Part shown: positions 1,323 to 44,981 of the stretch, piece by piece
Layout of the letters: the number at the start of each line of letters is the position of its first letter
How positions within the stretch are numbered: position 1 is the stretch's first letter
Assembly (NCBI GenBank): GCA_038046365.1
Contig: JBBSWF010000024.1
Coordinates: 1-48,668, forward strand
Direction: 5' to 3'
Length of the DNA stretch: 48,668 bases
Source: Nanobdellota archaeon
GTDB lineage: Archaea > Nanobdellota > Nanobdellia > Woesearchaeales > JAGWAF01
Notes under the pieces: model-generated
Seen by the model: the letters and a program-made list of their open reading frames with translations, nothing else
Database searches by the model: none
What the model was told of the DNA's origin: nothing
Position numbers and translations under genes: made by a program

Positions 1323-1387
1323 AAGAACTACCCAGAATACGGTCCTATAAATGATTGATGGAGCGACTGATGAACCTCAATCAAACA

Positions 1388-2701: not shown

Positions 2702-2766
2702 ATAACTCCTTTCTGTCTAGGAGGTTTTTAATGGTTTGCGAGAGGCGCGCGAAATCTTTCTGGGCA

Positions 2767-5795: not shown

Positions 5796-6827
5796 TCATC
5801 TCCAGTAGACTTCGATCTGGTCGGTGCGCAGATAAGGCTTGATGTCGATCTTGTCTAAGGTGAGGGATATCGGCTGAGCTTTGTATTGAAGGATGCCAAG
5901 CCACGCGATCATCGCAGCATTGTCGACTAGGAATTGATTCTCTGGGGAGGCGAACTTGGCATTTCTCTCCTTGCACATGATCCCGCACATCTCTTGGAGA
6001 CGTTTATTGCAGGCGACGCCTCCACCTAGCAGGAGCTCTGATTTCCCGCAGTGGGCCATCGCGCGTTCAGAGACTTCTACAAGCATCGCGAAGACGGTTT
6101 CCTGGACAGAGAAGGCGAGATCAAAATCGTTTAATGTTCCCCCTTCGGTGGAACTTAAACGATTTTGGGTGTTAGACGATTTCATTGAGACAATCTTCTG
6201 TTTAAGGTTAGTGAAGAGGCCACCGAAAGTGACGTCCATCCCCTTGACGCTGTAGGGGAGATGGATGAGGTTTGTTCCATTGAGGGCCAGCTGCTCGACT
6301 TTCGGACCGCCGGGGAATCCTAATCCTAATTCTCGCGCGAAGGAATCGATAAAGTTGCCCACTCCGCCGTCGATGGACTCGCCGAAGACCCGATATTTCC
6401 CGCCGTCATAGGCGATGATCTGAGTGTTGGCGCCGGATGCATAGAGCATGACTGGGTCTTGCATGCCAGTGCGGAGACGGCCAATCTCAAGGTGGGCGAC
6501 ACAATGGTTGACTCCGATGACCGGGATCTTGTGGAGAACGTGAATAGACCTTGCTACGTCGCATCCTACCTTGAGGGCGTTGCCGATGCCTGGAGATTGG
6601 GAGTAAGAGATGATGTCGATATCTTTGATCTTGAGACCTGCTTTGTTCAATGCCTGATTGAGGATCCTTCCACAGACATCGACGTGATGCTCGCCCAACT
6701 TGAACGGAATGAGTCCGCCTTCCTCGGTGGTGTAGAGATCCTTCTCGTTGGCAAGGACGTTGCCTTTGTCGTCCATGATGGCGATGCCGAATGTGTGGGC
6801 AGTGGATTCTATGCCTAGGGAGAGCAT
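5796..6827 (-). CDS. kae1: tRNA N6-adenosine threonylcarbamoyltransferase Kae1 (stand-alone, not fused to Bud32)
   Basis: LGIESTAHTFGIAI N-terminus, metal-binding NHCVAHLE motif, and GGGVACN near the C-terminus. 343 aa. Confidence 0.9.
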   Translation of the reverse strand: MLSLGIESTAHTFGIAIMDDKGNVLANEKDLYTTEEGGLIPFKLGEHHVDVCGRILNQALNKAGLKIKDIDIISYSQSPGIGNALKVGCDVARSIHVLHKIPVIGVNHCVAHLEIGRLRTGMQDPVMLYASGANTQIIAYDGGKYRVFGESIDGGVGNFIDSFARELGLGFPGGPKVEQLALNGTNLIHLPYSVKGMDVTFGGLFTNLKQKIVSMKSSNTQNRLSSTEGGTLNDFDLAFSVQETVFAMLVEVSERAMAHCGKSELLLGGGVACNKRLQEMCGIMCKERNAKFASPENQFLVDNAAMIAWLGILQYKAQPISLTLDKIDIKPYLRTDQIEVYWR

Positions 6828-15663: not shown

Positions 15664-18600
15664 TCACTCACGATGCATGGCCAGCGTCAACGCCTTCCCC
15701 TTTATCTTCTCTTCAGAGGACCATTCAGGCTTCTTTGCCGGGTCTTTGTCGTCGATGGTTAGGGAGGCGACTCCGCACTTCTCCTTGATCGTGTCGAGCC
15801 AGGCCTTTAGCGGGTCGCTTGACTCCTTGCCTGCCTTGATGTGGAGCGTGACCCTGTCCTTCCTCTGCAGACCGGCGGTCCTTCGGAGAGCCTGGATGCG
15901 GCGCGTGACCTCGCGAGAGAACCCTTCTGCTTCAAGCTCCGGCGTGGTGGTGGTATCAAGATAGGCGAGGCCTCCCTGGAATGACGCCTCTTTGAGGTGC
16001 GCAGGGACGATGCGGTTGATGAATACATGCTCTGGAACGAGATTGACCTCCTGGCCATCTATCTTGATGACCATCCTGCGGTCCTTCTGCATATGGCGGA
16101 CCACATCTTCAACGGAGTGCGTCACAATAGCTGCAATTACCTTCGGAGTGAGCTTGCCGAAATCCGATCCGATCTTGCCGGTGTCTGCCTTGACATCGAA
16201 CTTGATGCCTGGCATGGACTCCTGGATGCGGATCTCCTTGACATTGGCCTGGCGCCTGATCAGGTCGCCCAGCTTCTCGCAAGACTCGACGACCTTCTTG
16301 TCACTGGTGACCAAAGTGAGAGTCTTTAGAGGCCACCTCGTGTTGATGTTGGCCTTCTCCCTGGCGAAACTAGACGCGCCGACAGCCTGCATCGCTGTGG
16401 CCATACCCGCTTCGAGCTCGGAGTCACAGTCCTTGTCGTCCCACTTTGGCCAGGCGCAATGGTGTATGGATTCTTCCTTTAGCCCGAACGCCTTCTTCAA
16501 GTCCTGATAGATAGCTTCAGTGATAAAAGGAGCGACTGGAGCGAAGAGCTTGAGCGAGTTCATCAGGACCTGGTAAGTGACTGACGCGACGACTCTCTTA
16601 TCCTCATCATCTCCCGTGGCCGCCTTGTCACGGACAAGCTGGATATACGTCCGTGATAAGTCGAGGAACAACGAATCCGCTGCTCCAGGCACATCATTGA
16701 GCTGGTAGTTGTCAAAAGACCTGGTCGCGTGGCGCGTGGCCGAGTGCATCCTGGATATGATGAACCTCTCCTCTTCACCATAAAGCTTCACGAGCGACTT
16801 GTCTTCGAGGTCCTTGAGCTTGAGGTCGTTGTTCTCGCACATGTCTATTAGGAACTTATGCAGGTTCCAGAGGACCCCCAGGTTCTTCATCTGGATCTTG
16901 GCCTCGTCAGGACTGTAGATGAAGTCGTCGCCAGGAGTCCCGCTTATGAAATAGTACCTCAGAGTGTCAGCGCCATACTCATTTATCACGTCGTCAGGCT
17001 TGATTATGTTGCCTAAGGATTTCGACATCTTCCTGCCGAGAGCATCCTGCGCCCAGGCATGCATATACACTGCCTTGAAGCACGGCTTGCCAAACGCGAG
17101 GTTGGACGCGATGTGCATGAGATTGAACCAGCCTCTAATCTGGTCCTTGGCCTCGAGGATGAATTGGGCAGGCCAGAGCTCCTCGAATAAGTCCTTGCGA
17201 TTAGGGTAATCAAGGCAAGTCCAGGAATTGGTGCCTGCGTCGACCCAGACATCTAGCACGTCAGGAATCCTGCGCTGCTCCTTGCCGCACGGACACTTGA
17301 ACACTACATCGTCGATCCATGGCTTGTGCAGCTCTGGGACTTTCTTGCCAGCTGTTTTCTCCAGCTCGGCGATGGAACCGATGACCGTGACTTTCTTGCA
17401 TGAATCGCAGCGCCAGACCGGGAGAGGCGTGCCCCAGAATCTCTGCTTCGTGACTGAGTTGTCCCGAAGGTTCTTGAGCCAGGAATCGAACGCGTTGAAC
17501 GCCGTCTGCGGAACCCACTTGATCTGCTCATTTTGCTTGATCAGCTCTGGCTTTATGTCCTCGACTTTGAAGAACCATTGAGTCGTCGTCCTGAAAACAA
17601 CAGGGTTGTGGCAGCGCTGGCAGTGCGCATACTCGTGCTCGACAGGCGTCTGTTCGATTAGGTTGCCGCTCTTCTTGAGCTCTTCGATGAAAAGCCGGTC
17701 ATCTATCTTCGCGCGCATGCCCGCGAACCTTCCAGTGGTCTTGTCAAAGACACCGTGCTCATCGATCGCGTTGTAAGGGGGAACGTTGTTCTTGTGACCA
17801 ACCTCATAATCCTCAGGACCGCATCCTGGAGCCATGTGGACAAGCCCGCTTCCGGCGCTTGTGTCGACATATTCTTCTGAAAGAAGGACCGTGTGTACTT
17901 TCGGATGCTTCTTCTTTAGCTCGGCATAAACCTTGATATCCTTGTGCCAGGGGTGCTCGTACTCGATGCCTTCGAGCTTCTCCCCTTTCATCTCTTCAAG
18001 AATTTTGAGATCCTTGCCGACCACCATCTGTATGAACGGGCCAGCGAGCGCCTTTGCCACTATCCACTTCTCATCATCAACTTGGCACTTCACATAGTCT
18101 AATTCCGGGTTGACCATGATCCCCAGGTTGAAAGCGATAGTCCACGGCGTCGTGGTCCAAATAACCAAGAATTCACCCTTCTTCCCTTTGATCGGGAACT
18201 TGAGGAAGATGCTGTTCTCGGTGACGGTCTGGTAGTCAAGCTCATGCTTTGCGATAGCCGTGGCGCAAGAGGCGCACCAAGTCATTGTGCGCTCGCCTTC
18301 ATACAGACGGCCTTTCTCGTACGCTTTCTTGACAAGGAACCAGACTCCCTCGATGAACACCGGCTTGATGCTCTGATACGCGTTCTCGTGATCCATCCAG
18401 ACGCCTAATCTGTCGAGGTCCTTGATCATGATGTTCATATTGTCGATGCAGAGCTTCTCGCATTCCTTGACATACTTGTCGACTCCAAACTTGAGTATGT
18501 CCGGCTTGCCTTTGAGGCCGAGCTTCTTCTCCACAGCGTGCTCAGTCGGGATTCCGTGCATGTCGAAGCCTGCCCTGTCCCAGACATCAAAACCCTGCAT

Positions 18601-18810
18601 CCGTTTGTACCTGATGAACAGGTCCTTGAGCGACTTGTTCCAGGCATGGCCTATGTGGATCCTTCCGCTGGTATACGGCGGGCCGTCGAGGAAATAGAAC
18701 TTCTTGGCTCCCCTGACCTTCTCTTTAGCCTTGGGATAACATCTGTGCTCCTTCCAGAACGACAAGACCTCTAATTCGTAGACTTTAGGGTCGAATTGCG
18801 CGACTTCCAT
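15664..18810 (-). CDS. ileS: Isoleucyl-tRNA synthetase
   Basis: HIGHAWN (HIGH) and KMSKS motifs, CP1 editing region and Zn-binding Cys pairs. True start is ATG 18810 (MEVAQFDPKVYE), about 20-30 nt after a TTTATAAA box. The ORF track extends it spuriously to 19197. Confidence 0.95.
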   Translation of the reverse strand: MEVAQFDPKVYELEVLSFWKEHRCYPKAKEKVRGAKKFYFLDGPPYTSGRIHIGHAWNKSLKDLFIRYKRMQGFDVWDRAGFDMHGIPTEHAVEKKLGLKGKPDILKFGVDKYVKECEKLCIDNMNIMIKDLDRLGVWMDHENAYQSIKPVFIEGVWFLVKKAYEKGRLYEGERTMTWCASCATAIAKHELDYQTVTENSIFLKFPIKGKKGEFLVIWTTTPWTIAFNLGIMVNPELDYVKCQVDDEKWIVAKALAGPFIQMVVGKDLKILEEMKGEKLEGIEYEHPWHKDIKVYAELKKKHPKVHTVLLSEEYVDTSAGSGLVHMAPGCGPEDYEVGHKNNVPPYNAIDEHGVFDKTTGRFAGMRAKIDDRLFIEELKKSGNLIEQTPVEHEYAHCQRCHNPVVFRTTTQWFFKVEDIKPELIKQNEQIKWVPQTAFNAFDSWLKNLRDNSVTKQRFWGTPLPVWRCDSCKKVTVIGSIAELEKTAGKKVPELHKPWIDDVVFKCPCGKEQRRIPDVLDVWVDAGTNSWTCLDYPNRKDLFEELWPAQFILEAKDQIRGWFNLMHIASNLAFGKPCFKAVYMHAWAQDALGRKMSKSLGNIIKPDDVINEYGADTLRYYFISGTPGDDFIYSPDEAKIQMKNLGVLWNLHKFLIDMCENNDLKLKDLEDKSLVKLYGEEERFIISRMHSATRHATRSFDNYQLNDVPGAADSLFLDLSRTYIQLVRDKAATGDDEDKRVVASVTYQVLMNSLKLFAPVAPFITEAIYQDLKKAFGLKEESIHHCAWPKWDDKDCDSELEAGMATAMQAVGASSFAREKANINTRWPLKTLTLVTSDKKVVESCEKLGDLIRRQANVKEIRIQESMPGIKFDVKADTGKIGSDFGKLTPKVIAAIVTHSVEDVVRHMQKDRRMVIKIDGQEVNLVPEHVFINRIVPAHLKEASFQGGLAYLDTTTTPELEAEGFSREVTRRIQALRRTAGLQRKDRVTLHIKAGKESSDPLKAWLDTIKEKCGVASLTIDDKDPAKKPEWSSEEKIKGKALTLAMHRE

Positions 18811-18991
18811 GACGAGATGAATCGGGAAACTGTTTATAAATGTTTGGCGTCGGCGTCTCGGCCGCTGATGCGGCCAATCCGGGCCAGGGCAAGGCCTTCG
18901 GCAGTGCGGGAGGGGAAACGGTCCTGGGTACAGTGTTTGGTTGAATCGGAGCTCCATAAGGATTATAAGATGGGGATGCGCAGAGGTCGAT

Positions 18992-19465
18992 ATGCCTGAA
19001 TCACTTAAGATGGGAACTCGTGCCTGGATCGCATTGATCGCATGCTTGTTGCTGAGCGCGCCGGCGGCAGAGGCAATATTGATACAGCCCGCCACTGCCA
19101 AAGGAATTGGCGGAGCTTTGACATCTTCGCTGCTCGCTGGATCAAAGAATATAAAGAAGGCCGCAAGCGAGATGAAACCAATCACGCCGGCAATCACTCA
19201 GAAGAAACCACTATATTATACGACGGCAAAGAACACCAACCCTCCTGGCTGGATATCAGGAAAACTGAAAATTGACGCCAAACCATCATCGGAACAGACA
19301 TTGACACAGGAACGGCTCACCAAGAGCAATATAAAGACACAGAATAAGATAGCCAAAGTCATCGCGAGAGAAAGACCGATCATCATTTCGACACGGGCCT
19401 CTTACGCATCGATTAGCGGGTCGTTCACTTCAGGCGGATTCGGCGGCAGCGTGAAGATGGGATAA
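18992..19465 (+). CDS. Small secreted/membrane-associated hypothetical protein
   Basis: Signal-peptide-like MGTRAWIALIACLLLSAPAAEA (ATG 18992 or 19010). Lys/Thr/Ser-rich mature part with a Gly-rich C-terminus. Confidence 0.4.
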   Translation: MPESLKMGTRAWIALIACLLLSAPAAEAILIQPATAKGIGGALTSSLLAGSKNIKKAASEMKPITPAITQKKPLYYTTAKNTNPPGWISGKLKIDAKPSSEQTLTQERLTKSNIKTQNKIAKVIARERPIIISTRASYASISGSFTSGGFGGSVKMG

Positions 19466-27461: not shown

Positions 27462-27534
27462 GGGGCTATAGGGTAGCTTGGTATCCTTTGCGGTTCGGGA
27501 CCGCAAGACCCCGGTTCGAATCCGGGTAGCCCCA
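27462..27534 (+). tRNA. tRNA-Pro (anticodon CGG)
   Basis: Acceptor GGGGCTA/TAGCCCC, D arm GGGT..ATCC, anticodon stem TGCGG/CCGCA with loop TTCGGGA (U33, CGG, G37), and T arm CCCGG-TTCGAAT-CCGGG. No encoded CCA. Confidence 0.85.
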
Positions 27535-27635: not shown

Positions 27636-27693
27636 TTCTTCTGGTTTTCCTTCAGAAATCTTTCTTAAGACGTGAAACAAAGAAGAAAGCGGT
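27636..27693 (+). promoter_or_regulatory. Conserved upstream block (promoter plus leader), copy 1, of the tRNA-scaffold genes
   Basis: 56 of 65 positions (27636-27700) are identical, without gaps, to 30937-31001. Contains A/T-rich AAATCTTTCTTAAG about 20 nt before the GCGGT leader. Confidence 0.5.
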
Positions 27694-27856
27694 GCCGGCG
27701 TAGGATAACCCGGTAATCCGCAAGACTGAAACCCTTGTGACCTTCCAGATCTTCGGGCATAAAAATCCTGCGGATTTTATGGTTCGAACCGCTTCGCGGT
27801 TCAAACTTTCAAATGCCTTTCGGTGAATCGGAGGGTTGAATGTCCCCGCGCCGGCG
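27694..27856 (+). ncRNA. tRNA-scaffold RNA with a ~100-nt structured insertion in its 3' half (anticodon-loop reading GAA)
   Basis: GCCGGCG-TA-GGAT-AACCCGGTA-ATCC-G-CAAGA-CTGAAAC-CCTTG gives acceptor, D arm and anticodon arm (A31/C39 mismatch). The 3' end TCCCCG-CGCCGGC-G is identical to the gene at 30995. Between them are hairpins 27758-27781 and 27786-27802 and two GGTTCRAAC T-loop-like motifs. Confidence 0.5.
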
Positions 27857-27879
27857 CCGCCTCTCTATTGTGATGCAGG

Positions 27880-28098
27880 TCAGATTTCTACGGCGACTTC
27901 CTGTACTTCAACCATACGGATCGGGCCGTTCTCGTGCTGAGGTGAATCAAGGTAAAGTTCGATGGCCTCTTTGATATTCTTCAACGCTTCCTCCTTGGTC
28001 CTGCCCTGGGAGATGCAGCCTGGGAGGTCAAGAGCTTCGACGACAAAATATCCATCCTCTCCAGGGTACACGATTATCTTGAATGTTTTCATCGGCAT
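27880..28098 (-). CDS. hicB: HicB-family antitoxin (second copy)
   Basis: YFVVEALDLPGCISQGRTKEEALKNIKEAIELYLD is closely similar to the copy at 9180. Confidence 0.8.
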   Translation of the reverse strand: MPMKTFKIIVYPGEDGYFVVEALDLPGCISQGRTKEEALKNIKEAIELYLDSPQHENGPIRMVEVQEVAVEI

Positions 28099-28128
28099 TC
28101 CACCTCTGATCCTTTTTTCAATTTAAAT

Positions 28129-28347
28129 CTATCTCAAGCACCTATTGAATTCATCGACAGTCAAGCCAGCTGACCTGATTATCGCCCTGAGCGTGCCACG
28201 GTCAAGCTCCTTGTGAAGCGGGATAGTGAGCGACTCACTTCCTTCCTTTATCATCCTCACATGGCTCCCTCTTTGGCGGTCAGCAGTATAACCGAGCTGG
28301 GCCAACGTCTTGATCACTTCACTGCCTGAGACCCTAGGCAAAGCCAT
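28129..28347 (-). CDS. hicA: HicA-family toxin (second copy)
   Basis: From ATG 28347: MALPRVSGSEVIKTLAQLGYTADRQRGSHVRM.. The ORF track extends it to 28452. Confidence 0.75.
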   Translation of the reverse strand: MALPRVSGSEVIKTLAQLGYTADRQRGSHVRMIKEGSESLTIPLHKELDRGTLRAIIRSAGLTVDEFNRCLR

Positions 28348-28513
28348 CAAAAAATGAGAAGCTCTATGTTTAAAGTGCGTTTTGGCAAGAAAGCCGGAAG
28401 CTGTGACCTTTTCTAGGTATGTTTTCGGCTCGATCGGAGGAATTCTGGCCAAATCAACATTTGGCCGAATCTTTTTCGAAATTGTCGGAATTAGAGGATT
28501 AATGTAACGAGAT

Positions 28514-30994: not shown

Positions 30995-31107
30995 GCCGGC
31001 GTTGGCGAACCAGGTACGCCGCTAGGTTGAGCTCCTAGTGTCTGAAAGGACTTCGGGGTTCAAATATCTTGCGGTTTACCGTAGGATTGGAAATCCCCGC
31101 GCCGGCG
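30995..31107 (+). tRNA. Class II tRNA (anticodon GAG, Leu-like) with a 29-nt BHB intron at position 59/60 (31065-31093)
   Basis: Acceptor GCCGGCG/CGCCGGC, D arm GGCG-AACCAGGTA-CGCC, anticodon arm CTAGG-TTGAGCT-CCTAG, long variable arm T-GTCT-GAAA-GGAC-TT, and T stem CGGGG/CCCCG. BHB: TTCA/TGGA 4-bp helix flanked by two AAT bulges, with a 9-bp inner helix. Splicing restores the T loop TTCAAAT. Confidence 0.7.
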
Positions 31108-32160: not shown

Positions 32161-34083
32161 ATGGTTGACGGTGAGGACTGGTGGGCGAGATACTGCTTGG
32201 CTGGGATGAATGAATGGGACTATCCTGTCGATTCACGCAAGCTCCTGAATAAGCTCTTCAAGGATGACTATCGGAAATTCTCAAAGCGAATCTCCTTGCG
32301 CTCAATGGAGGAGATGATCAGGCGCACCACACATAACTTCGTCTGGATGCCTCGTGAGTTCCACGACGCAGCAAAGATGGATGTGGGATTCCCGCCTGTA
32401 ATCGATGGATCCAGAAATCGTATCCGAGAATTGACCAAATACCTCTCATTTGTTGAAGACCTTGACCTGACCACCTGTGAAGGCAGGAACATATACCTCC
32501 CTTACTCCTCGGACTGCCTATACCTCGCCCGGGGCGAGATGTTCCACTTCCTGTTGAGCGAACTCGATTACTGGAGGCTGCGCGGGGTGAATCAACTGGC
32601 TTATCTCGGATTATACCATTCCATACGCGAGGGTCTTATGCTCAATGATCCTAATCCCAAAGATGCCCTTGCCCACACGCGATTCCAGCATTGCACGCTA
32701 GCCGCTGCGATGATCGAGACGGTGATGACTAGGGGAAGTTTTGGAGATGAAGAGATCGGGGAAGCCACCCTCGCGACTTTCATGCACGACTACGCTACTC
32801 CGGGGCTTGGCGACACGATGAAAACACTCGATCGCAAAGGGCTTGATGAAGAGACGCATTTCCTTGACAGCTTATCTCCAGAGAGACAAGAACTGCTCTT
32901 GAAACGGCTGAAGATCGACATCCGGAGGGTAGACGGCATCATCAACGGAGCCATCAACACACCTGCCACTTCCCTACTTCACTCAAATGGAATAGACATC
33001 GATAAGATATCCTACGTAGCGATAGACTGCTTCAACTTCCTGCAGATGTGCCAGGACAACAAGGAATTGCCTGAATGGAATGGGCCATGGAGAGACCGCG
33101 AGGACGGATTAGCGGTCTTGCCTGGCAATATAGGCGTCAGATCGCGCGACGACCAGTTCGGGCTGTGGCAACAATACAATCATTGGAGACCTCCAGCGCT
33201 AAAACATCACCTTGAATCTATACTACAGAAAGATCCAGACCTCTTCGAGATCCACAAAGATATCGAAGTCCATCGCGAGAACGGCAGCGGAGAGTTCAAA
33301 GCCGTGTTCTCCAATCCCCGGAGGGCGCTCGCTTTCATCAGGATGAGGGCCTACCTGTGCTCGATGCTCTATTGCTCTGACGAAAGCCGAGGAAAAGAAG
33401 CTGGATACTTCCATCATCTCTTCGGCCGGCTCTACGGACGAGGCCTCCTGAAAGCTGAACACCTCCGGCGCATGACTGATCGGGAAGCGGCATTCACGCT
33501 TCTCGCCACGCTCGCTGAGCTTGAAGGCGTGCCTGTAGGATATGGGATCAAGAAGAATGGGGACATCAGGCCATATGTCTCTTATTCAGATGATACCTAC
33601 GTCGTGCATTACGGGCACGACCGGGGCCTGATGGACTACTTCATTCCACTCATCATCGGAAGCAGGCCTTACATCATCAAACGATTTGACAATCATCAAG
33701 AACTCTACAAGGAGACCCCTCCCTCTGTGCTGAACAACCACGGGACGATGATCAAGAGGTTCAAAGGATTCAAGACCGGGATAGAGACATTGGTGAAGAC
33801 TAAGGAGGGGATCGTGCCGTTATACACCACGCTGAAGGCTAAACATCTTCAAGAGCTTGATAGATTGAGAGCAAGTGCATCGGGAGTCTACCTGTTCCAG
33901 CCAAATCCAGAATACCGGGAGATCTTCAAACGGATAGAAGGACTTCATCGGAAGGCTGCTCAGAATCCCCGCGGGGAAGAGTATCCCCTGAGTCCGGAGT
34001 TCATCCATGCTCACGGATTGGATAATACCTCTTCTGAGGCAACGTCTGCGGCAGAAAATGATCCTATACTAGACATAATCTGA
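32161..34083 (+). CDS. HD-domain phosphohydrolase, SAMHD1/dGTPase-like (COG1078-type) with long N- and C-terminal extensions
   Basis: WRLRGVNQLAY (FQRL..QLG-like), AHTRFQHCTLAAA (HTRFEHSLGV-like), TFMHDYATPGLGD (HD motif) and GIDIDKISYVAIDC (D-x-D-K-x-DY-like). 640 aa. Confidence 0.65.
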   Translation: MVDGEDWWARYCLAGMNEWDYPVDSRKLLNKLFKDDYRKFSKRISLRSMEEMIRRTTHNFVWMPREFHDAAKMDVGFPPVIDGSRNRIRELTKYLSFVEDLDLTTCEGRNIYLPYSSDCLYLARGEMFHFLLSELDYWRLRGVNQLAYLGLYHSIREGLMLNDPNPKDALAHTRFQHCTLAAAMIETVMTRGSFGDEEIGEATLATFMHDYATPGLGDTMKTLDRKGLDEETHFLDSLSPERQELLLKRLKIDIRRVDGIINGAINTPATSLLHSNGIDIDKISYVAIDCFNFLQMCQDNKELPEWNGPWRDREDGLAVLPGNIGVRSRDDQFGLWQQYNHWRPPALKHHLESILQKDPDLFEIHKDIEVHRENGSGEFKAVFSNPRRALAFIRMRAYLCSMLYCSDESRGKEAGYFHHLFGRLYGRGLLKAEHLRRMTDREAAFTLLATLAELEGVPVGYGIKKNGDIRPYVSYSDDTYVVHYGHDRGLMDYFIPLIIGSRPYIIKRFDNHQELYKETPPSVLNNHGTMIKRFKGFKTGIETLVKTKEGIVPLYTTLKAKHLQELDRLRASASGVYLFQPNPEYREIFKRIEGLHRKAAQNPRGEEYPLSPEFIHAHGLDNTSSEATSAAENDPILDII

Positions 34084-34183: not shown

Positions 34184-34885
34184 GTGATTATGATGTGGAA
34201 CTACTTCCCAAAAGCAGCGCCTCGACCTAAACCAGTCCAGGGCAAGGAACGCATGAAATTCGGGACGACCTGGTGGGGCAAGAAGTGGGTCGAAGCTGTC
34301 GAGGGGATAGGAGATCAACAGCGCATGTCACGCGGCAGAGCGTACGCACGGGCGAACCGGGCCTTCAACATAGATATAAAAGAAGGGAATGTGACCGCAA
34401 AGGTGGAAGGGTCGCATGGGGACTACAAGGTGTCGATGCGATTCTCGAAGATCGACGGGGACGATAAGGATAGACTATTATCCTCGCTTGTCGCCCAGCC
34501 AGAACTTCTCGGCGCGATTCTCAATAATGAAGTGCCTGATAATCTCGAAGACGCATCAAAGGTGGACTTGATACCGACGGAATTCGACTCGAAATGTTCA
34601 TGCCCAGACTACGAGAACCCCTGCAAACATATCGCCGCGGTTTTCTATGCCCTAGCAGCCGAGATTGATGCGGCTCCGCAAATACTCCTCAAGATCCGTG
34701 GAGTGGATAAGAATGACATCTTGAACGTAGCGACAGGGACGCTCGAGGCCGGTATCGATCATCCGAGCACCGTGAAAAAAGCGCGCAAATCCAAACAGAG
34801 CCGGCCAGCCAAACCGACTAAGAAAAGACCTATTAAGAAGGCGGCCACCTCACTAAAGAAGCCGGGAAAAACCAGACGAGAATAG
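34184..34885 (+). CDS. SWIM zinc-finger protein (partner of SNF2 helicase)
   Basis: FGTTWWGKKWVEAV..RMSRGRAYAR N-terminus and CSCPDYENPCKHIAAVFY (CxCxnCxH SWIM motif). Basic C-terminal tail. Confidence 0.8.
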   Translation: MIMMWNYFPKAAPRPKPVQGKERMKFGTTWWGKKWVEAVEGIGDQQRMSRGRAYARANRAFNIDIKEGNVTAKVEGSHGDYKVSMRFSKIDGDDKDRLLSSLVAQPELLGAILNNEVPDNLEDASKVDLIPTEFDSKCSCPDYENPCKHIAAVFYALAAEIDAAPQILLKIRGVDKNDILNVATGTLEAGIDHPSTVKKARKSKQSRPAKPTKKRPIKKAATSLKKPGKTRRE

Positions 34886-34888
34886 ATT

Positions 34889-37123
34889 ATGGCAGCGCGT
34901 CGGAGCGTATTTATATCAGGAAAGGACAGCATAATTGACGACTACAAGTTCTCTTTCGAAGGAAGATACAACCTGCTGTTTCGCCTCATCGCGCCATCTG
35001 ACGGAGAAGACCACTGGACGATTGAATACCTTATACAATCTGAAACCGATCTAAGCCTCACGTACCCTCTTGAGAAGGTGAGAAACCGGGACTCGGTACC
35101 GCTTCAAGCATCTCTTGTCGCGATCCAAAAGATGACGGCCGCATCAAAAATGACAAGGTTCGCCACAGCGGCCGCCACAAAACCACGGACCCTAACCAAT
35201 GAAGAGGCTTATGAGTTCATCAAGCATGAATCTTTCAAACTCAAAGAAGCCGGCTTCGCAGTACAGATACCAAAAAAACTTGAACCCGAACAGCAATCGG
35301 TAAAGCTCAACATCGATATCAAGGACTGGTCTCAATATGCAATCGGAAAAACCATCGGAGACAGCATTCTAAAGTTCGATTATACCGCCTCAATCGCCGG
35401 GCAGACCCTATCCCCTGAAGAATTCCAGCGCATCGTCGAGACAAAATCGCACTTGGCATATGTCAAGGATAAATGGGTCGAAATAAATCCAGAGGACGCC
35501 GAACGGCTCGCGAGAATGCTTGGCAAAAAACGAGGCAATAGTCTCCAAGCCGCTATGACTGACAGCTTGATCCTGGCTGAAACCGGAATAGAGACAAACG
35601 TCACCCGCGACGGGCGGGTATTCGAATCTATTATACATGCGATCAGCGATAAGGGACTTGCACTAAATCATTCAATTCCAGACGGTTTCAAAGGAAAACT
35701 CCGACCATACCAAGAACGAGGACTGACATGGCTGGATCTCATGTCCCGGATCGGACTGGGAGCGCTGCTGGCCGATGATATGGGCCTTGGAAAGACCGTG
35801 CAGGTGATCGCGCACACCTTGAGCCATCTTGATGATAAATCATCACCAGCGCTAATCGTATGCCCCACCTCAGTGATAGGAAACTGGGCTTTTGAGCTCC
35901 AAAGGTTCGCTCCATCGCTTCGGACAAGGATACACCATGGATCGTCTCGCAGCGAGGGCGACAGCTTCATCGCTGAGACAAAAAAACACGACGTCATAAT
36001 AACAAGTTATGCCCTATCAAGACGAGACCAGGATGAGCTATTATCGGTCAGATGGGGCCTTGTGGTCCTTGATGAAGCCCAGAACATCAAGAACCCGATC
36101 GCGAAACAGACCGAGATACTAAATAACATAAACACGAAGTCGCGAATAGCTCTGACTGGAACCCCAATCGAGAACAGGATATCCGACATATGGTCGATAA
36201 TGGAATTCCTCAATCCAGGGTACCTCCCGGAATGGGAGAAATTCAAAGAGATATTCGCCAGACCGATAGAATCTGACAATGACGCCCAGAAAAGAACAGC
36301 GCTCAAGACAGCACTCGCGCCTTTTATACTGCGCAGGCTCAAGACAGACAAATCCATCATTACAGACCTCCCTGACAAGATCGAGAAAAAGGAATGGTGC
36401 TATCTCACAAATGAACAGGCGACGCTGTATCAGGCAACCGTCGACGCCTCACTCAAAGATATCAAAGAGCAGGAAGCGCCGCAACAGAAACTGGCAATCT
36501 TCGCGGCGATAACAAAGCTCAAGCAGATATGTAACCATCCCTCCAACTTCCTCAAGGACTCGCACGAACTAGGCAACAGATCAGGAAAGATAGAACGCCT
36601 AAGAGATCTGCTCGGTCAGATCACAGCCGCCGGAGAATCCTGCCTGATCTTCTCCCAATACGCGGAGATGGGGGCGCTTCTCCATCAAAACCTCAAAAAG
36701 GAGATAGATGCTCCTGTACTGTTTATCCATGGCGGGGTTCCAAGAAAAACAAGGGAAGAATTGGTCGCTGAGTTCCAACAAGACGACGGAAAACCAAGAA
36801 TAATGATCCTCTCCCTAAAAGCCGGAGGCACAGGCTTGAACCTGACTCGCGCGACCCAGGTCATCCACTTCGACCGATGGTGGAACCCCGCAGTAGAAAA
36901 CCAGGCCACTGACCGGGCATACCGCATCGGGCAGAAAAAAAACGTGATAGTCCACAAGTTTGTGACCAAGGGCACCATCGAGGAAAGAATCGAGGACGTA
37001 CTTCAACGAAAATCAAAACTATCTGATTCAATGCTCACCTCAGGCGAGAGCGCACTCTCGGGAATGAGCGTCGAGAGCCTCAGAGAGCTATTCACATTAA
37101 AGGATTGGGAAGAGAGTAGGTGA
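34889..37123 (+). CDS. SNF2-family helicase/ATPase with N-terminal SNF2-associated domain
   Basis: LADDMGLGKT (motif I), VVLDEAQNIKN (DEAQ box), LTGTPIEN, and helicase-C motifs SLKAGGTGLNLT and QATDRAYRIGQ. Starts 3 nt after the SWIM gene. Confidence 0.9.
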   Translation: MAARRSVFISGKDSIIDDYKFSFEGRYNLLFRLIAPSDGEDHWTIEYLIQSETDLSLTYPLEKVRNRDSVPLQASLVAIQKMTAASKMTRFATAAATKPRTLTNEEAYEFIKHESFKLKEAGFAVQIPKKLEPEQQSVKLNIDIKDWSQYAIGKTIGDSILKFDYTASIAGQTLSPEEFQRIVETKSHLAYVKDKWVEINPEDAERLARMLGKKRGNSLQAAMTDSLILAETGIETNVTRDGRVFESIIHAISDKGLALNHSIPDGFKGKLRPYQERGLTWLDLMSRIGLGALLADDMGLGKTVQVIAHTLSHLDDKSSPALIVCPTSVIGNWAFELQRFAPSLRTRIHHGSSRSEGDSFIAETKKHDVIITSYALSRRDQDELLSVRWGLVVLDEAQNIKNPIAKQTEILNNINTKSRIALTGTPIENRISDIWSIMEFLNPGYLPEWEKFKEIFARPIESDNDAQKRTALKTALAPFILRRLKTDKSIITDLPDKIEKKEWCYLTNEQATLYQATVDASLKDIKEQEAPQQKLAIFAAITKLKQICNHPSNFLKDSHELGNRSGKIERLRDLLGQITAAGESCLIFSQYAEMGALLHQNLKKEIDAPVLFIHGGVPRKTREELVAEFQQDDGKPRIMILSLKAGGTGLNLTRATQVIHFDRWWNPAVENQATDRAYRIGQKKNVIVHKFVTKGTIEERIEDVLQRKSKLSDSMLTSGESALSGMSVESLRELFTLKDWEESR

Positions 37124-42368: not shown

Positions 42369-44981
42369 ATGGGCGACGATCAAAAGGGGGATTCGAGCGA
42401 GCGCACTACTCCAGATTTCAAAGAGCTCGCGAAGACTGAATACGAGCAAAAATACGGCTTCCATGACCCTGAAGAATCAGTGATGAGAATACCCAAAGGA
42501 TTGAGCCATGACGTGGTCAAGGCGATCTCTGCCGCAAAAAGAGAGCCCAAATGGATGCTTGACATACGACTGGCTGCATTCGAGATATTCCTCGCGAAGA
42601 AGATGCCAACATGGGGCGGGGATCTCTCAAAGATAGACTTCGACAACATTACATATTATCTGAAACCGTCAGAGAACACTGGACGCGACTGGAAAGACGT
42701 GCCGGATCGTATAAAGAAGACGTTCGAGAGGCTCGGCATCCCTGAAGCAGAGCAGAAGTTCTTAGGCGGCGTCGGAGCGCAATACGAGTCCGAATCAGTG
42801 TATCATTCTCTACGGGATGACCTGTCGAAACAAGGGGTGATCTTCTGTGACATGGACACGGCCCTGCGCGAACATCCAGAGGTCGTCAAGAAATTCTTTG
42901 GCACTATTGTGCCTTCGGGCGACAACAAGTTCGCCGCTTTAAACACCGCGGTCTGGTCAGGAGGCAGCTTCGTATACGTTCCCAAAGGGGTGGCAGTGAA
43001 ATTACCTCTGCAGGCGTACTTTCGCATCAACGCGAAGAACATGGGACAGTTCGAGCGAACGTTGATAATAGCTGACGAAGGCGCTTCGGTTCATTACATC
43101 GAAGGATGCTTTGTCAAAAGAACACTGATCAAGACCCTCGGTGGATTGAAACCCATCGAAAGCATCAACGTAGGGGATCATGTCTTGACCCATACTGGAG
43201 AGTTCAGGCCAGTATACGATCTGCAGCGCAGGAAACATAACGGAATACTTTGCACACTACGCTATTTCGGGGATTCGAGGCAGACAATCAAGATCACTGG
43301 GGGCCATCCGGTCTTTGCTGTCCGCAGGACTAACAAGGATGCCAAGAATTCAACATGGAATCCTCAATGGATTGAAGCAGGCCAGCTCAATAAAGGGGAC
43401 TACATCGCTATCCCAATAGACCGCACAGTCATCTCCCACAAGGACAGGTTCTTCCCGATTGAGATGGGCAGTAAAAGCCACCCTCTCCCAACGATCCAAT
43501 ACAGATTCGAGATGAACGGCAGTTTCTTCAGGCTCGCAGGCTACTACCTGGCTGAAGGAAGTGTAATCAACGACCATCACCTCACATTCACCTTCAACAA
43601 GAACGAACGCGATTATATCGATGATACCAAATCATTGCTGGAGGAGCATTTTGGCAAAGAGCCGATCGAAGGGAAAGAATATAACGGGGGAGTCACGCTG
43701 ACCCTTTGCAGCACCCCTGCGGCTCGATTCTTCGCAAAAGAGTTTGGAAAAGGCGCAGCCAACAAGTCATTACCTCCATGGTTCATGGCAGAGGATCCTA
43801 AAAAACAGGCAGAGTTCATCAAAGGCTATTGGCGCGGCGATGGAAACTACTTCTTCAAAAAGTATCCGTGGGGAACCAAGCGCATGTTCAGAATAAATAC
43901 TATCTCTGAAAAGCTCGCAGAACAAACAAGGGACATCCTGCTCAGGTTAGACATCTTCGCTTCGATAAACGTATGGAATAATATCCCTCCAAGAAAAACA
44001 GGATATGCGGTCTATGTCGGGGGCTCATTCATTCAAGAATTCTCGCACATTGTTGGATCAGAGAGCTCTGGAGAGGTTGCGACTCCGGTCGAAACTGGAG
44101 GGACACAAACCCTCCTGCAAAAGACCGCCGTCTCCTACGCGCACATCACAGAAAAGCACGCTTTTGTCCCGATCCGGCAGATCATCAAAGAAGCGGTATC
44201 TGGTCTTGACGTCTACAACTTCAGCGTCTTAGAGAATGAATCTTATGTCGCTGGGGGCATTGTCGTACATAACTGCACAGCGCCTGTCTACTCATCAGAC
44301 TCGCTGCATGCCGCGGTCGTCGAAGTCATCGCGCACAAAGACGCGAAGATACGCTACACAACAATACAGAACTGGTCAGGCGACGTCTACAACCTGGTCA
44401 CAAAAAGAGCGATGGCACGCGAGGGCGCGACTGTCGAGTGGATTGACGGCAACCTGGGATCGAAGCTCACGATGAAGTATCCATCTGTGATACTCGCTGG
44501 AAAAGGGGCTCGGGCGGACATATTATCCGTCGCTTACGCAGGCGAAGGACAGCACCAGGACGCTGGAGCGAAAGTGATACACCTAGCGCCAGAGACCACG
44601 TCGCGGATAATCTCCAAATCCGTGAGCAAAGATGGGGGTCGGTCGAGCTATAGGGGTATGGTCCGAATCGCGAAAGGGGCTATCGGGGCCGCATCTTCTG
44701 TGCGATGCGACGCGCTGATCCTGGATGATCGGTCCAGGTCAGACACATATCCAACAGTGAAGGCAGAAGAAGAGCAATCCACTATCGCGCACGAGGCGTA
44801 TGTAGGCCGCATCGGAGAGGACCAGCTGTTCTACCTCATGTCCAGAGGACTGCCTGAGGCAGAGGCGCTCGCATTGATCGTGCTGGGATTCATCAACGAG
44901 TTCACAAAAGAGCTGCCGATGGAATACTCCATCGAGATGAACAAACTGATACGCCTCGAGATGGAAGGGAGCGTCGGGTGA
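42369..44981 (+). CDS. sufB: Fe-S cluster assembly protein SufB, interrupted by an in-frame intein
   Basis: SufB N- and C-exteins (..ASVHYIEG | CTAPVYSSDSLHAAVVE..AKIRYTTIQNW..) total 481 aa around a 389-aa insertion. Confidence 0.9.
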   Translation: MGDDQKGDSSERTTPDFKELAKTEYEQKYGFHDPEESVMRIPKGLSHDVVKAISAAKREPKWMLDIRLAAFEIFLAKKMPTWGGDLSKIDFDNITYYLKPSENTGRDWKDVPDRIKKTFERLGIPEAEQKFLGGVGAQYESESVYHSLRDDLSKQGVIFCDMDTALREHPEVVKKFFGTIVPSGDNKFAALNTAVWSGGSFVYVPKGVAVKLPLQAYFRINAKNMGQFERTLIIADEGASVHYIEGCFVKRTLIKTLGGLKPIESINVGDHVLTHTGEFRPVYDLQRRKHNGILCTLRYFGDSRQTIKITGGHPVFAVRRTNKDAKNSTWNPQWIEAGQLNKGDYIAIPIDRTVISHKDRFFPIEMGSKSHPLPTIQYRFEMNGSFFRLAGYYLAEGSVINDHHLTFTFNKNERDYIDDTKSLLEEHFGKEPIEGKEYNGGVTLTLCSTPAARFFAKEFGKGAANKSLPPWFMAEDPKKQAEFIKGYWRGDGNYFFKKYPWGTKRMFRINTISEKLAEQTRDILLRLDIFASINVWNNIPPRKTGYAVYVGGSFIQEFSHIVGSESSGEVATPVETGGTQTLLQKTAVSYAHITEKHAFVPIRQIIKEAVSGLDVYNFSVLENESYVAGGIVVHNCTAPVYSSDSLHAAVVEVIAHKDAKIRYTTIQNWSGDVYNLVTKRAMAREGATVEWIDGNLGSKLTMKYPSVILAGKGARADILSVAYAGEGQHQDAGAKVIHLAPETTSRIISKSVSKDGGRSSYRGMVRIAKGAIGAASSVRCDALILDDRSRSDTYPTVKAEEEQSTIAHEAYVGRIGEDQLFYLMSRGLPEAEALALIVLGFINEFTKELPMEYSIEMNKLIRLEMEGSVG
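43107..44273 (+). mobile_element. SufB intein with LAGLIDADG homing-endonuclease domain (389 aa)
   Basis: Begins with Cys (CFVKRTLIKT), ends VVHN, followed by +1 Cys (CTAP). LAGLIDADG blocks LAGYYLAEGS and IKGYWRGDGN. The frame is continuous with both exteins. Confidence 0.85.

What the first reader, a model, noticed from the sequence alone, without database searches (positions are those of the whole stretch)
27694..27856. Second tRNA-scaffold gene carrying a ~100-nt highly structured insertion that does not resolve into BHB introns
The 5' 44 nt form a convincing acceptor strand, D arm (A14, GG, A21 in place) and anticodon arm (loop CTGAAAC, anticodon GAA, closing A/C mismatch). The last 14 nt are the same T-stem and acceptor strands as in the gene at 30995. 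In between lie about 106 nt containing a 10-bp hairpin with one bulged A (27758-27781), a GAACCG-CTTCG-CGGTTC hairpin (27786-27802) and two T-loop-like motifs (GGTTCGAAC, GGTTCAAAC). I tested every TT(C/T)(A/G) tetramer as the 5' strand of a BHB against the 3' TGAA-TGT-CCCCG. Only CGCGG-TTCA-AAC (27795-27806) comes close, and it needs a C/C mismatch in the T stem and a non-canonical bulge. I found no BHB that removes the remaining ~57 nt. This could be a multi-intron tRNA processed through relaxed motifs, a decaying pseudogene, or a distinct structured RNA built on a tRNA scaffold.
Basis: seen in the sequence. Interest (0 to 1): 0.7.

Follow-up and report, generated by a model that had tools for sequence, protein, structure and literature searches.

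The report
Expanded serine-type tRNA-like gene, Phe anticodon
The locus is a real, conserved tRNA-derived gene from a family I found no description of: archaeal serine-type tRNA bodies carrying non-serine anticodons and a T-loop intron, here with an extra conserved ~50-base insert that ordinary tRNA splicing cannot remove.

Summary
One thing was missed. TTCA-AAT (27808-14), a 9-bp hairpin and TGAA-TGT (27837-43) form a textbook bulge-helix-bulge core, the same 29-nt intron at tRNA position 59/60 as in the paralogue at 30995.

That intron and the tRNA body define a family of at least 10 distinct genes in uncultured archaea. Shared features are a long variable arm, G73, a D arm GGNN-AACCNGGTA-NNCC and the T loop TTCAAAT. 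Covariation is strong. The body scores like canonical tRNA-Ser of related organisms, not tRNA-Leu, yet the anticodons are GAA, GAG, CAG, ACG, GTC, TTC and GCA.

A sister species (about 78-80% protein identity in neighbours) keeps both window genes in synteny. Their anticodons are unchanged and their stems have compensatory changes.

The remaining ~50 nt of this locus (hairpin 27758-81 plus a tripled T-arm 5' half) has no BHB. A 34-nt block within it is 100% identical in the sister species, against 41% for the flanking intergenic DNA. So it is not a decaying pseudogene, and it is probably not an ordinary multi-intron tRNA.

TTY and CTY codons still mean Phe and Leu in the window's IleRS. I read it as an accessory, expanded tRNA-like RNA. 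Its function is not shown.

The parts
27652..27669 (+). Promoter-like element TCAGAAATCTTTCTTAAG (TATA-like box about 25 nt upstream of the RNA 5' end)
   Evidence: Identical upstream of paralogue B (30943-60) and of both sister-species orthologues. The upstream 60 nt is 87-88% identical, against 41% for adjacent intergenic DNA. Function as a promoter is inferred.
27689..27693 (+). Leader GCGGT, complementary to the trailer at 27856-27860; extends the acceptor helix to 12 bp
   Evidence: Read from the sequence. Also present in B, B' and, with 4 bp, in A'.
27694..27737 (+). tRNA positions 1-43: acceptor 5' strand, D arm (A14, G18 G19, A21), anticodon arm with loop CTGAAAC (anticodon GAA at 27728-30)
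   Evidence: D-stem and anticodon-stem pairs change on both sides relative to B and to orthologue A'.
27738..27753 (+). Variable-arm region: T, GACC-TTCCA-GATC (one C/A mismatch), TT
   Evidence: Homologous to the 3-4 bp variable arm of the family (alignment A2). 50% identical to A' but still pairable there as GCTT/GGGC.
27754..27757 (+). CGGG: first four bases of the family's T-stem 5' strand (CGGGG), cut off from the rest by the insert
   Evidence: Alignment with B. Same break point in A'.
27758..27781 (+). Hairpin 1 (10 bp, one bulged A, loop TGC)
   Evidence: Present at the same site in A' with changed loop and register (84% identity including the CTTCGGG flank).
27781..27814 (+). 34-nt block GGTTCGAACCGCTTCGCGGTTCAAACTTTCAAAT. 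It holds three T-loop-like copies, reads as a tandem triplication of the T-arm 5' half CTTCGGGGTTCAAAY, and contains hairpin 2 (27786-27802)
   Evidence: 34/34 identical in the sister species (L146 98-131). Absent from viral contigs. The triplication is my reading of the sequence.
27808..27843 (+). BHB core: H2 TTCA 27808-11 / TGAA 27837-40; bulges AAT 27812-14 and TGT 27841-43; inner helix 27815-23 / 27828-36, loop TGAA. Predicted intron 27814-27842 (29 nt, tRNA position 59/60)
   Evidence: BHB scan. Homologous to B's intron 31065-31093, which has all three helices. Compensatory changes occur in the inner helix across the family and in A'.
27844..27856 (+). T-stem 3' strand CCCCG, acceptor 3' strand CGCCGGC, discriminator G73
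   Evidence: Identical in B, A' and B'.
30995..31107 (+). Paralogue B: same body, anticodon loop TTGAGCT (GAG), canonical hBHBh' intron 31065-31093
   Evidence: After in-silico splicing ARAGORN calls it an 84-nt class II tRNA(gag). 125 bits with model R1, of whose training set it is part.

Best explanation
The locus is a functional, transcribed, tRNA-derived gene. It is an expanded member of a family of archaeal class II, serine-type tRNA genes whose anticodons are not serine anticodons; here the anticodon is GAA. Shown: the 5' two thirds are an intact tRNA body. The 3' end carries the family's 29-nt bulge-helix-bulge intron at position 59/60. Between them lies a lineage-specific expansion of about 50 nt: a hairpin inserted after C49-G52 of the T stem, plus a tripled copy of the T-arm 5' half. 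That expansion is conserved in a sister species and offers no BHB. Inferred mechanism: transcription starts about 25 nt downstream of a conserved TATA-like box. The splicing endonuclease cuts in the two 3-nt bulges (after 27813 and after 27842) and the ends are ligated. The expansion stays in the mature RNA of about 134 nt. It folds either as a three-way junction in the T stem, or as a long extra arm in the variable region with CGCGG(27795-99)/CCCCG as a substitute T stem. With G73, G1-C72 and a variable arm, the RNA carries the features that seryl-tRNA synthetase uses. With its abnormal T region it is unlikely to be an efficient ribosomal decoder. I therefore read it as an accessory tRNA-like RNA whose anticodon and acceptor end are under selection. 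It could be a low-level mistranslator, a substrate for a tRNA-dependent enzyme, or a regulator. It is not the cell's ordinary tRNA-Phe.
For: Paralogy and shared flanks. BHB core in A and full hBHBh' in B and C. Family retrieved from genomes and metagenomes. Covariation of cloverleaf, variable arm and BHB: 96.7% of cells paired, 17 pairs changed on both sides, 0 of 500 shuffles as high, slid controls 40-54% paired. After in-silico splicing ARAGORN calls six members as class II tRNAs with the expected anticodons. Serine-type body: model R1 gives canonical tRNA-Ser (TGA, GGA) 53-65 bits even though they lack the intron. It gives a canonical tRNA-Leu(TAG) of the same contig as one member 24 bits, tRNA-Ala 28 and tRNA-Pro 19. 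Orthologues in a sister species keep synteny and the anticodons GAA and GAG, with compensatory stem changes. Segment identities: 34-nt block 100%, 3' end 100%, promoter 87%, intron 83%, positions 1-44 80%, intergenic 41%, canonical tRNA-Pro 100%. Standard meaning of TTY and CTY in the window's IleRS. No BHB removes the expansion.
Against: There are no expression, end-mapping or aminoacylation data. The scan covered only BHBs with 3-nt bulges and a 4-bp central helix carrying at most one mismatch. Splicing endonucleases of Nanoarchaeota- and ARMAN-type lineages cut relaxed motifs, so full removal cannot be excluded. Three hypothetical excision schemes do yield an ARAGORN-detectable 85-nt tRNA(gaa). 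Serine identity is inferred from body similarity, G73 and the variable arm, not tested. Only one orthologue exists, and it is split over two contigs with an unsequenced gap. There the same site holds at least 250 nt of extra sequence, which may point to a mobile insertion. Thermodynamic folding does not favour either fold of the T region, and the unconstrained minimum-energy fold is not a cloverleaf.
Confidence: 0.5

Rival explanations
1. It is an ordinary multi-intron tRNA. Besides the 59/60 intron, the hairpin and the duplicated T-loop copies are removed through relaxed (bulge-helix-loop) motifs by a broad-specificity endonuclease. The product is a normal 85-nt class II tRNA with anticodon GAA.
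For: Removing 27758-81 + 27783-807 + 27814-42, or 27758-81 + 27789-842, or 27758-98 + 27806-42, each gives a sequence that ARAGORN calls tRNA(gaa). Other family members carry several or long introns: L138 and L139 in the D loop, L139 with a long insert at 59/60. The nearest named relatives are DPANN archaea, and Nanoarchaeota are rich in non-canonical introns (PMC4090602). TTCG(27783-86) or TTCA(27800-03) can each pair with TGAA(27837-40).
Against: No BHB with at least 3 of 4 central pairs and flanking helices spans these segments, before or after removing the first intron, and none is shared with the orthologue. The 34-nt block that would have to be intronic is 100% conserved, whereas the undoubted intron is 83% conserved. 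No scheme for hairpin 1 places its ends in bulges.
Confidence: 0.2
2. It marks a mobile-element insertion site. An element or large ORF-bearing intron inserted into the T arm and is still present in the sister species. The window copy is the deletion remnant, and the repeated T-loop copies are duplicated target sequence.
For: At exactly this site the sister species has at least 250 nt of extra, highly structured sequence. It contains two similar CGGGTTGAG...CGAAACCCG modules, a possible ORF start (ATGAGCGC at the contig end) and a possible ORF end. The three tandem copies resemble target duplications. HicAB lies directly downstream in the window but not in the sister species.
Against: No integrase, transposase or homing-endonuclease gene is visible. 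No inverted repeats or BHB were found at the ends. A scar would not stay 34/34 identical while flanks diverge. The block itself also lies outside the variable part in the sister species.
Confidence: 0.12
3. It is a decaying pseudogene of a B-type gene.
For: The T stem is interrupted, the variable arm has a mismatch, the anticodon stem has an A/C mismatch, and standard tRNA finders fail.
Against: The orthologue keeps the anticodon, the same A31/C39 mismatch, the promoter, hairpin 1, the block and an intact BHB, with compensatory changes. Neutral DNA nearby is 41% identical.
Confidence: 0.06
4. It is a dedicated substrate or adaptor for a tRNA-dependent enzyme. Together with B it would supply Phe- and Leu-type aminoacyl-tRNA to the cyclodipeptide synthase encoded in the same window.
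For: ORF 3916-4623(-) is a cyclodipeptide synthase (Pfam CDPS, 109 bits). Its closest solved relatives make cyclo(Leu-Leu) and cyclo(Leu-Phe). The two odd tRNA genes in the window carry exactly Phe (GAA) and Leu (GAG) anticodons.
Against: The synthase lies 23 kb away, separated by housekeeping genes. Family members elsewhere have Asp, Glu, Cys and Arg anticodons, and no synthase is present in their (short) loci. The body suggests charging with Ser, not Phe or Leu. This is a post hoc coincidence.
Confidence: 0.07

Closest known systems
allo-tRNAs (Mukai et al. 2017, Nucleic Acids Res 45:2776, PMC5389517)
   Same: Both have serine-identity features (long variable arm, G73) combined with highly diverse non-serine anticodons. 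Some allo-tRNA members have extra stems ('five-stem-junction') and disrupted pairs and are thought not to translate. [quoted passage not shown]
   Different: Allo-tRNAs are bacterial and are defined by an 8/4 or 9/3 acceptor/T-stem split. This family is archaeal, has the normal 7/5 split, and carries a BHB intron in the T loop. Translation activity was tested for allo-tRNAs and not here.
Archaeal tRNA genes with non-canonical BHB introns, including position 59/60 (Marck & Grosjean 2003; Sugahara 2008; review PMC4090602)
   Same: A 4-bp helix flanked by two 3-nt bulges. Position 59/60 is a listed non-canonical site. Multiple introns per gene and similar introns in different tRNA bodies are known.
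   Different: In locus A the outer helix is displaced by about 50 nt that has no BHB of its own. In this family the similar introns sit in one shared body with different anticodons, rather than in different bodies.
Canonical archaeal tRNA-Ser
   Same: Same D arm pattern, variable-arm geometry, G73 and T loop as tRNA-Ser(TGA/GGA) found with the same search (L123, L128, L130, L131).
   Different: Anticodons are GAA, GAG, CAG, ACG, GTC, TTC and GCA. The genes evolve fast (78-80% identity between the two species, against 100% for tRNA-Pro).
Natural anticodon-shifted tRNA-Ser (tRNA-Ser(CAG) of CUG-clade yeasts)
   Same: A serine body reads a leucine codon. Two family members carry CAG and three carry GAG.
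   Different: In yeasts the codon is reassigned or ambiguous. In the window's IleRS, CTY and TTY codons sit at conserved Leu and Phe positions.
Split tRNA genes of Nanoarchaeum equitans
   Same: DPANN-type context, and leader/trailer complementarity next to the tRNA ends.
   Different: Both parts of A are contiguous in the window. The leader-trailer helix has no bulges.

Membership tests
tRNA (Rfam RF00005 / ARAGORN) | Four-arm cloverleaf detectable by a tRNA model at the curated threshold | tested here: not met
   Unspliced A scores 17.5 bits against a gathering score of 29, on the 5' part only. ARAGORN finds nothing. It is detected only after hypothetical removal of 78 nt.
tRNA (Rfam RF00005 / ARAGORN) | Acceptor, D and anticodon arms with conserved A14, G18 G19, A21, U33 | tested here: met
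   Stems covary with B and A'.
Archaeal BHB intron | 4-bp helix flanked by two 3-nt bulges on opposite strands | tested here: met
   TTCA 27808-11 / TGAA 27837-40, with bulges AAT and TGT. Definition taken from PMC4090602.
Archaeal BHB intron | Flanking helices on both sides (strict hBHBh') | tested here: inconclusive
   The inner helix of 9-10 bp is present. The outer helix is not contiguous (H1 = 0). CCCCG can pair only with CGGG+G82 or CGCGG 27795-99, across 8-50 unpaired or structured nucleotides. B and C have all helices.
Archaeal BHB intron | Actual excision in vivo | not testable with these tools
   No RNA data are available.
Serine-type class II tRNA | Long variable arm plus discriminator G73 | tested here: met
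   All members have G73. The variable stem of 3-4 bp covaries. A's variable stem has one mismatch.
Serine-type class II tRNA | Body closer to tRNA-Ser than to the other class II type (Leu) | tested here: met
   Model R1 gives tRNA-Ser 53-65 bits and canonical tRNA-Leu(TAG, A73, 3-bp D stem) 24 bits.
Serine-type class II tRNA | Serine anticodon | tested here: not met
   GAA in A and A'; GAG in B and B'.
Serine-type class II tRNA | Charged by SerRS | not testable with these tools
   Inferred only.
allo-tRNA | 8/4 or 9/3 acceptor/T-stem configuration | tested here: not met
   The family has a 7-bp acceptor and 5-bp T stem (alignment A2).
allo-tRNA | Serine-type body with non-serine anticodons | tested here: met
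Reassigned genetic code | Codons read by the odd tRNA align with the new amino acid in conserved proteins | tested here: not met
   In IleRS aligned with 59 homologues, TTY sits at conserved F in 11 of 15 columns (the rest Y or W). CTY sits at conserved L in 11 of 12. None sits at S.

The most novel reading that the evidence does not exclude
Some uncultured DPANN-like archaea maintain a set of accessory serine-bodied tRNAs that cover many sense codons (Phe, Leu, Arg, Asp, Glu, Cys). These would be an archaeal counterpart of bacterial allo-tRNAs, kept under selection for anticodon and acceptor end and gated by a T-loop intron. They would serve regulated mistranslation, or supply tRNA-dependent enzymes such as the cyclodipeptide synthase in this window. 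Locus A would be a derivative whose T region has become a new structured module with three tandem T-loop motifs.
Probability: 0.3. Interest if true: 0.85.

Novelty: new variant of a known kind. Interest (0 to 1): 0.68.

Why it matters
Serine-bodied tRNAs with non-serine anticodons are the natural route to codon reassignment and deliberate mistranslation. Known cases are bacterial allo-tRNAs and the yeast tRNA-Ser(CAG). An archaeal family would add a third, independent case. Its anticodons are conserved between species, it evolves fast, it shares a T-loop intron, and it sits in genomes that still use the standard code. Such a family would give a tractable system for asking what these tRNAs are for. 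Locus A also shows that the tRNA T arm can carry a conserved ~50-nt expansion. That is relevant to how tRNA scaffolds give rise to new RNAs, and to annotation, since standard finders miss every intron-bearing member.

Tried and rejected
- The first genome scan used the GC-rich 3' motif and returned only chance matches in high-GC bacteria, so it was wasted.
- Rfam at permissive threshold gave nothing beyond weak tRNA hits on the locus, and nothing on the sister-species insert.
- Viral contigs hold neither the family pattern nor the 34-nt block.
- A protein-anchored search for relatives in reference genomes found only a distant Thermoplasmatales hit. Homologue searches with the Lrp-like and binding-protein neighbours found just one related species, so only one orthologue pair is available.
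- One BHB candidate enclosing hairpin 1 was rejected: TTCGGGC/GTTCGAA as outer helix, ATAA/TTTT as central helix, 16-nt intron. It does not restore a T arm and is not kept in the orthologue.
- The BHB search across the sister-species gap gave only weak candidates.
- Constrained folding of four T-region models gave -43.8 to -49.5 kcal/mol, too close to choose between them. Unconstrained minimum-energy folds are not cloverleaves.
- Neighbour-gene comparison across family loci showed no common partner protein.
- The nearby deaminase looked at first like a tRNA adenosine deaminase. It resembles guanine deaminase (my sequence comparison from memory, plus source names) and is probably irrelevant.
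- Literature searches found no description of archaeal serine-bodied tRNAs with non-serine anticodons. The library is incomplete, so this is absence of evidence only.

Full report
**1. The observation**

- The acceptor 5' strand is GCCGGCG.
- The D arm has four base pairs, with A14, G18 G19 and A21 in place.
- The anticodon arm is CAAGA-CTGAAAC-CCTTG, with anticodon GAA at 27728-30 and a closing A/C mismatch.
- There is a 10-bp hairpin with one bulged A (27758-81) and the hairpin GAACCG-CTTCG-CGGTTC (27786-802).
- T-loop-like copies are GGTTCGAAC, GGTTCAAAC and a third copy, TTTCAAAT.
- The 3' sequence CCCCGCGCCGGCG is shared with the gene at 30995.

ARAGORN and Rfam at gathering threshold report only a normal tRNA-Pro(CGG) at 27462-27534. 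The Rfam tRNA model touches the 5' part of the locus at 17.5 bits.

The two loci, A at 27694 and B at 30995, share several flanking features.
- A promoter-like element, TCAGAAATCTTTCTTAAG.
- The leader AAAGAAGAAAGCGGT.
- A trailer, GCCGC, that pairs with the leader.

D-stem and anticodon-stem pairs differ between A and B on both sides.

**2. One part of the insert is a standard intron**

I wrote a scan for bulge-helix-bulge (BHB) motifs: a 4-bp helix between two 3-nt bulges on opposite strands, as defined in PMC4090602.

In B it finds a perfect hBHBh': CGGGG / TTCA / AAT / 9-10 bp hairpin / TGGA / AAT / CCCCG. This predicts a 29-nt intron (31065-31093) at tRNA position 59/60 and a mature T loop TTCAAAT.

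Locus A has the same core.
- The central helix is TTCA 27808-11 with TGAA 27837-40.
- The bulges are AAT and TGT.
- The inner helix has 9-10 bp.
- The predicted intron is 27814-27842.

A has no contiguous outer helix. The T-stem strand CGGG(G) lies about 50 nt upstream.

**3. The family**

DNA patterns built from the conserved D arm and T loop retrieved relatives.
- Two tandem genes in a MAG labelled Methanosarcinales (L121).
- One gene in a Nanoarchaeia MAG (L122).
- Several genes in sediment and groundwater metagenomes.
- One more found with a covariance model (L133 7033-7150).

All share the following.
- A 7-bp acceptor stem, mostly GCCGGCG.
- A D arm GGNN-AACCNGGTA-NNCC.
- A 3-4 bp variable arm.
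- A T stem with loop TTCAAAT, and G73.
- In the non-serine members, a 29-36 nt BHB intron at 59/60.

On eight intron-bearing members the structure of cloverleaf, variable arm and BHB is 96.7% paired. It has 17 pairs changed on both sides. No shuffle out of 500 reaches that, and slid controls are 40-54% paired. After in-silico splicing ARAGORN recognises six of them as class II tRNAs.

Their anticodons are:
- GAA: A, A' and L133b.
- GAG: B, B' and L137.
- CAG: L122 and L138.
- ACG: the two L121 genes.
- GTC: L133.
- TTC: L135.
- GCA: L136.

The same search also returned genes with the same body and genuine serine anticodons (TGA, GGA), mostly without the intron (L123, L128, L130, L131, L139).

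The covariance model built from the non-serine members scores other tRNAs as follows.

| tRNA | Score (bits) |
|---|---|
| Canonical tRNA-Ser, despite the missing intron | 53-65 |
| Canonical tRNA-Leu(TAG), A73, 3-bp D stem, on the same contig as L136 | 24 |
| tRNA-Ala | 28 |
| tRNA-Pro | 19 |

The body is therefore of the serine type.

**4. Orthologues**

Protein neighbours led to a sister species in JGI sample 3300029959, with 76-80% amino-acid identity in the deaminase, the Lrp-like regulator and the binding protein. Synteny is kept: deaminase, tRNA-Pro, A', then (next contig) the A' 3' end, binding protein, Lrp, B', DHH.

- **B'** keeps GAG and the unusual C37, while the D stem, anticodon stem and variable arm change in a compensatory way. 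B and B' are 78% identical overall.
- **A'** keeps GAA, the A31/C39 mismatch, the break after CTTCGGG and hairpin 1.
- **The 3' contig of A'** shows GGTTCGAACCGCTTCGCGGTTCAAACTTTCAAAT 34/34 identical to A. It is followed by the intron hairpin with compensatory changes and an identical 3' end.

| Segment, window vs sister species | Identity |
|---|---|
| tRNA-Pro | 100% |
| Intergenic DNA | 41% |
| A promoter and leader | 87% |
| A positions 1-44 | 80% |
| Variable arm | 50% |
| CTTCGGG + hairpin 1 | 84% |
| 34-nt block | 100% |
| Intron | 83% |

The locus is therefore under selection, and the pseudogene reading fails. These genes also evolve much faster than a core tRNA does.

In A', at least 250 nt of additional structured sequence lies between hairpin 1 and the block. 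It is interrupted by the contig gap. It could be a mobile insertion or an ORF-bearing element.

**5. The remaining ~50 nt of A**

By sequence it reads as a hairpin inserted after C49-G52, followed by a tandem triplication of the T-arm 5' half CTTCGGGGTTCAAAY.
- Copy 1: 27751-57 plus 27782-89.
- Copy 2: 27792-806.
- Copy 3, partial: 27807-14.

No BHB with at least 3 of 4 central pairs removes any of it. This holds in the primary sequence, after removing the 59/60 intron, and in the composite orthologue.

The covariance model aligns A with CGCGG 27795-99 as T-stem strand (one C/C mismatch). It pushes 52 nt, including a possible 16-bp irregular hairpin at 27752-88, into the variable region. The alternative is CGGG+G82 as the T-stem strand, with hairpin 1 as a three-way junction. 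This alternative is equally stable: -49.5 against -46.1 to -48.5 kcal/mol.

I cannot decide between these folds. Either way the mature RNA would have an abnormal T region, unless relaxed motifs are cut. Relaxed cutting remains possible, because the nearest named relatives are DPANN archaea. IleRS is 44% identical to a Woesearchaeota protein, and L122 is labelled Nanoarchaeia. Nanoarchaeota are rich in non-canonical introns, and broad-specificity endonuclease types are described for DPANN lineages (abstracts listed).

**6. The genetic code**

I aligned the window's IleRS with 59 homologues. TTY codons sit at conserved Phe in 11 of 15 columns, and the rest are Tyr or Trp. CTY codons sit at conserved Leu in 11 of 12. 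None sits at Ser.

The code is standard, at least in this one gene. A serine-charged GAA or GAG tRNA would therefore mistranslate rather than implement a reassignment.

**7. Interpretation**

Shown:
- It is a real, conserved gene.
- It belongs to a serine-type, anticodon-shifted, intron-bearing family.
- One BHB intron is present.
- It carries a conserved expansion that is not BHB-removable.

Inferred:
- Transcription from the TATA-like box.
- Excision of 27814-27842.
- Retention of the expansion in the mature RNA.
- Recognition by SerRS.
- Poor or no use in ordinary decoding.

The closest known analogue is the bacterial allo-tRNA group. Allo-tRNAs also combine serine identity with non-serine anticodons, have structurally aberrant members, and lie near toxin-antitoxin genes. 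This family fails the defining 8/4 or 9/3 criterion, is archaeal, and carries a T-loop intron.

**8. Context and side observations**

The window is chromosomal: IleRS, PolB, Kae1, a SufB with intein signature, and SufD/S. HicAB lies directly 3' of A but not in the sister species.

A cyclodipeptide synthase is encoded at 3916-4623(-). It sits in a small cluster with a threonine-synthase-like PLP enzyme, an MFS transporter and a methyltransferase. Its nearest solved relatives make cyclo(Leu-Leu) and cyclo(Leu-Phe). The two odd tRNA genes carry Leu and Phe anticodons. This is a striking coincidence, but nothing else supports a link.

**9. Verdict**

I file the locus as a new variant of known kinds: anticodon-shifted serine-type tRNAs combined with archaeal BHB introns. 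Function is unproven and the structure of the T region is unresolved.

Noticed in passing
window 3916-4623 (-), with neighbours 168-3846 (-): Cyclodipeptide synthase (Pfam CDPS, 109 bits; nearest solved relatives YvmC, cyclo(Leu-Leu) synthase and AlbC). It sits in a small cluster with a threonine-synthase-like PLP enzyme, an MFS transporter and a HemK-like methyltransferase. This is a tRNA-dependent enzyme in the same window as two odd tRNA genes with Phe and Leu anticodons.
   Followed up: partly
window 27462-27534 (+): Normal tRNA-Pro(CGG), 58 bits. It is 100% identical in two related species (L141, L143), in contrast to the fast-evolving loci A and B.
   Followed up: yes
window 27880-28452 (-): HicB/HicA toxin-antitoxin pair immediately downstream of locus A. 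It is absent from the corresponding place in the sister species, where the A' 3' end abuts the binding-protein gene (L146).
   Followed up: partly
L143 (minus strand) 140-1 and L146 1-97: The sister-species orthologue carries at least 250 nt extra at the insertion site. It contains two similar modules, CTGCGGGTTGAG-TAGAAC-GAAACCCGCAG and CCACGGGTTGAG-CCCGAAAGGC-GAAACCCGTGG (a helix with tandem G/A pairs), and a possible ORF start and end at the contig ends. Rfam finds nothing.
   Followed up: partly
L133 3320-3439 (+) and 7033-7150 (-); same as L140: Two family members lie 3.6 kb apart, with anticodons GTC and GAA. The GTC gene sits between a GatCAB operon and a 593-aa ORF that I take to be aspartyl-tRNA synthetase from its N-terminal sequence only.
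   Followed up: no
L138 about 1111-1220 (-) and L139 2057-2248 (+): A CAG member and a genuine tRNA-Ser(TGA) of the same body type carry an additional long insert in the D loop. L139 also has a roughly 90-nt insert at 59/60. Multi-intron genes therefore exist in this body type.
   Followed up: no
L135 about 5835-5862, L136 upstream of 1282 (-), L122 upstream of 377 (-): A small GC-rich hairpin (GCCGA-GTAAAA-TCGGC, GCCG-GTAAAA-CGGC, GCGCC-GTGA-GGCGC) sits 3-5 nt upstream of the tRNA 5' end and changes in a compensatory way. In all members the base at -1 can pair with G73. It may be a processing signal.
   Followed up: no
B 31031, B' (L146), L137, L138, L133b anticodon loops: Position 37 is C in the GAG members, one CAG member and one GAA member (TTGAGCT, CTGAGCA, TTGAGCA, CTCAGCA, CTGAACA). 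A pyrimidine at 37 is very unusual for decoding tRNAs.
   Followed up: no
window 42369-44981 (+): SufB of 870 aa whose match to the SufB model is split in two, with an intein C-terminal splicing-region match at 614-636. This suggests an intein-containing SufB.
   Followed up: no
window 34184-37123 (+) and 32161-34083 (+): A SWIM zinc-finger protein followed by an SNF2-family helicase with DUF3670, preceded by a 640-aa ORF with no Pfam match.
   Followed up: no
window 15664-19197 (-): The IleRS ORF as listed is about 130 residues longer at the N terminus than its homologues, whose matches start at residues 131-141. The real start is probably internal.
   Followed up: no
L121 and L123 record titles: The MAGs holding near-identical or related genes are labelled Methanosarcinales. 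The window's IleRS and deaminase have their nearest named relatives in DPANN archaea (Woesearchaeota, Nanoarchaeia). The taxonomic label of the clade is uncertain.
   Followed up: partly
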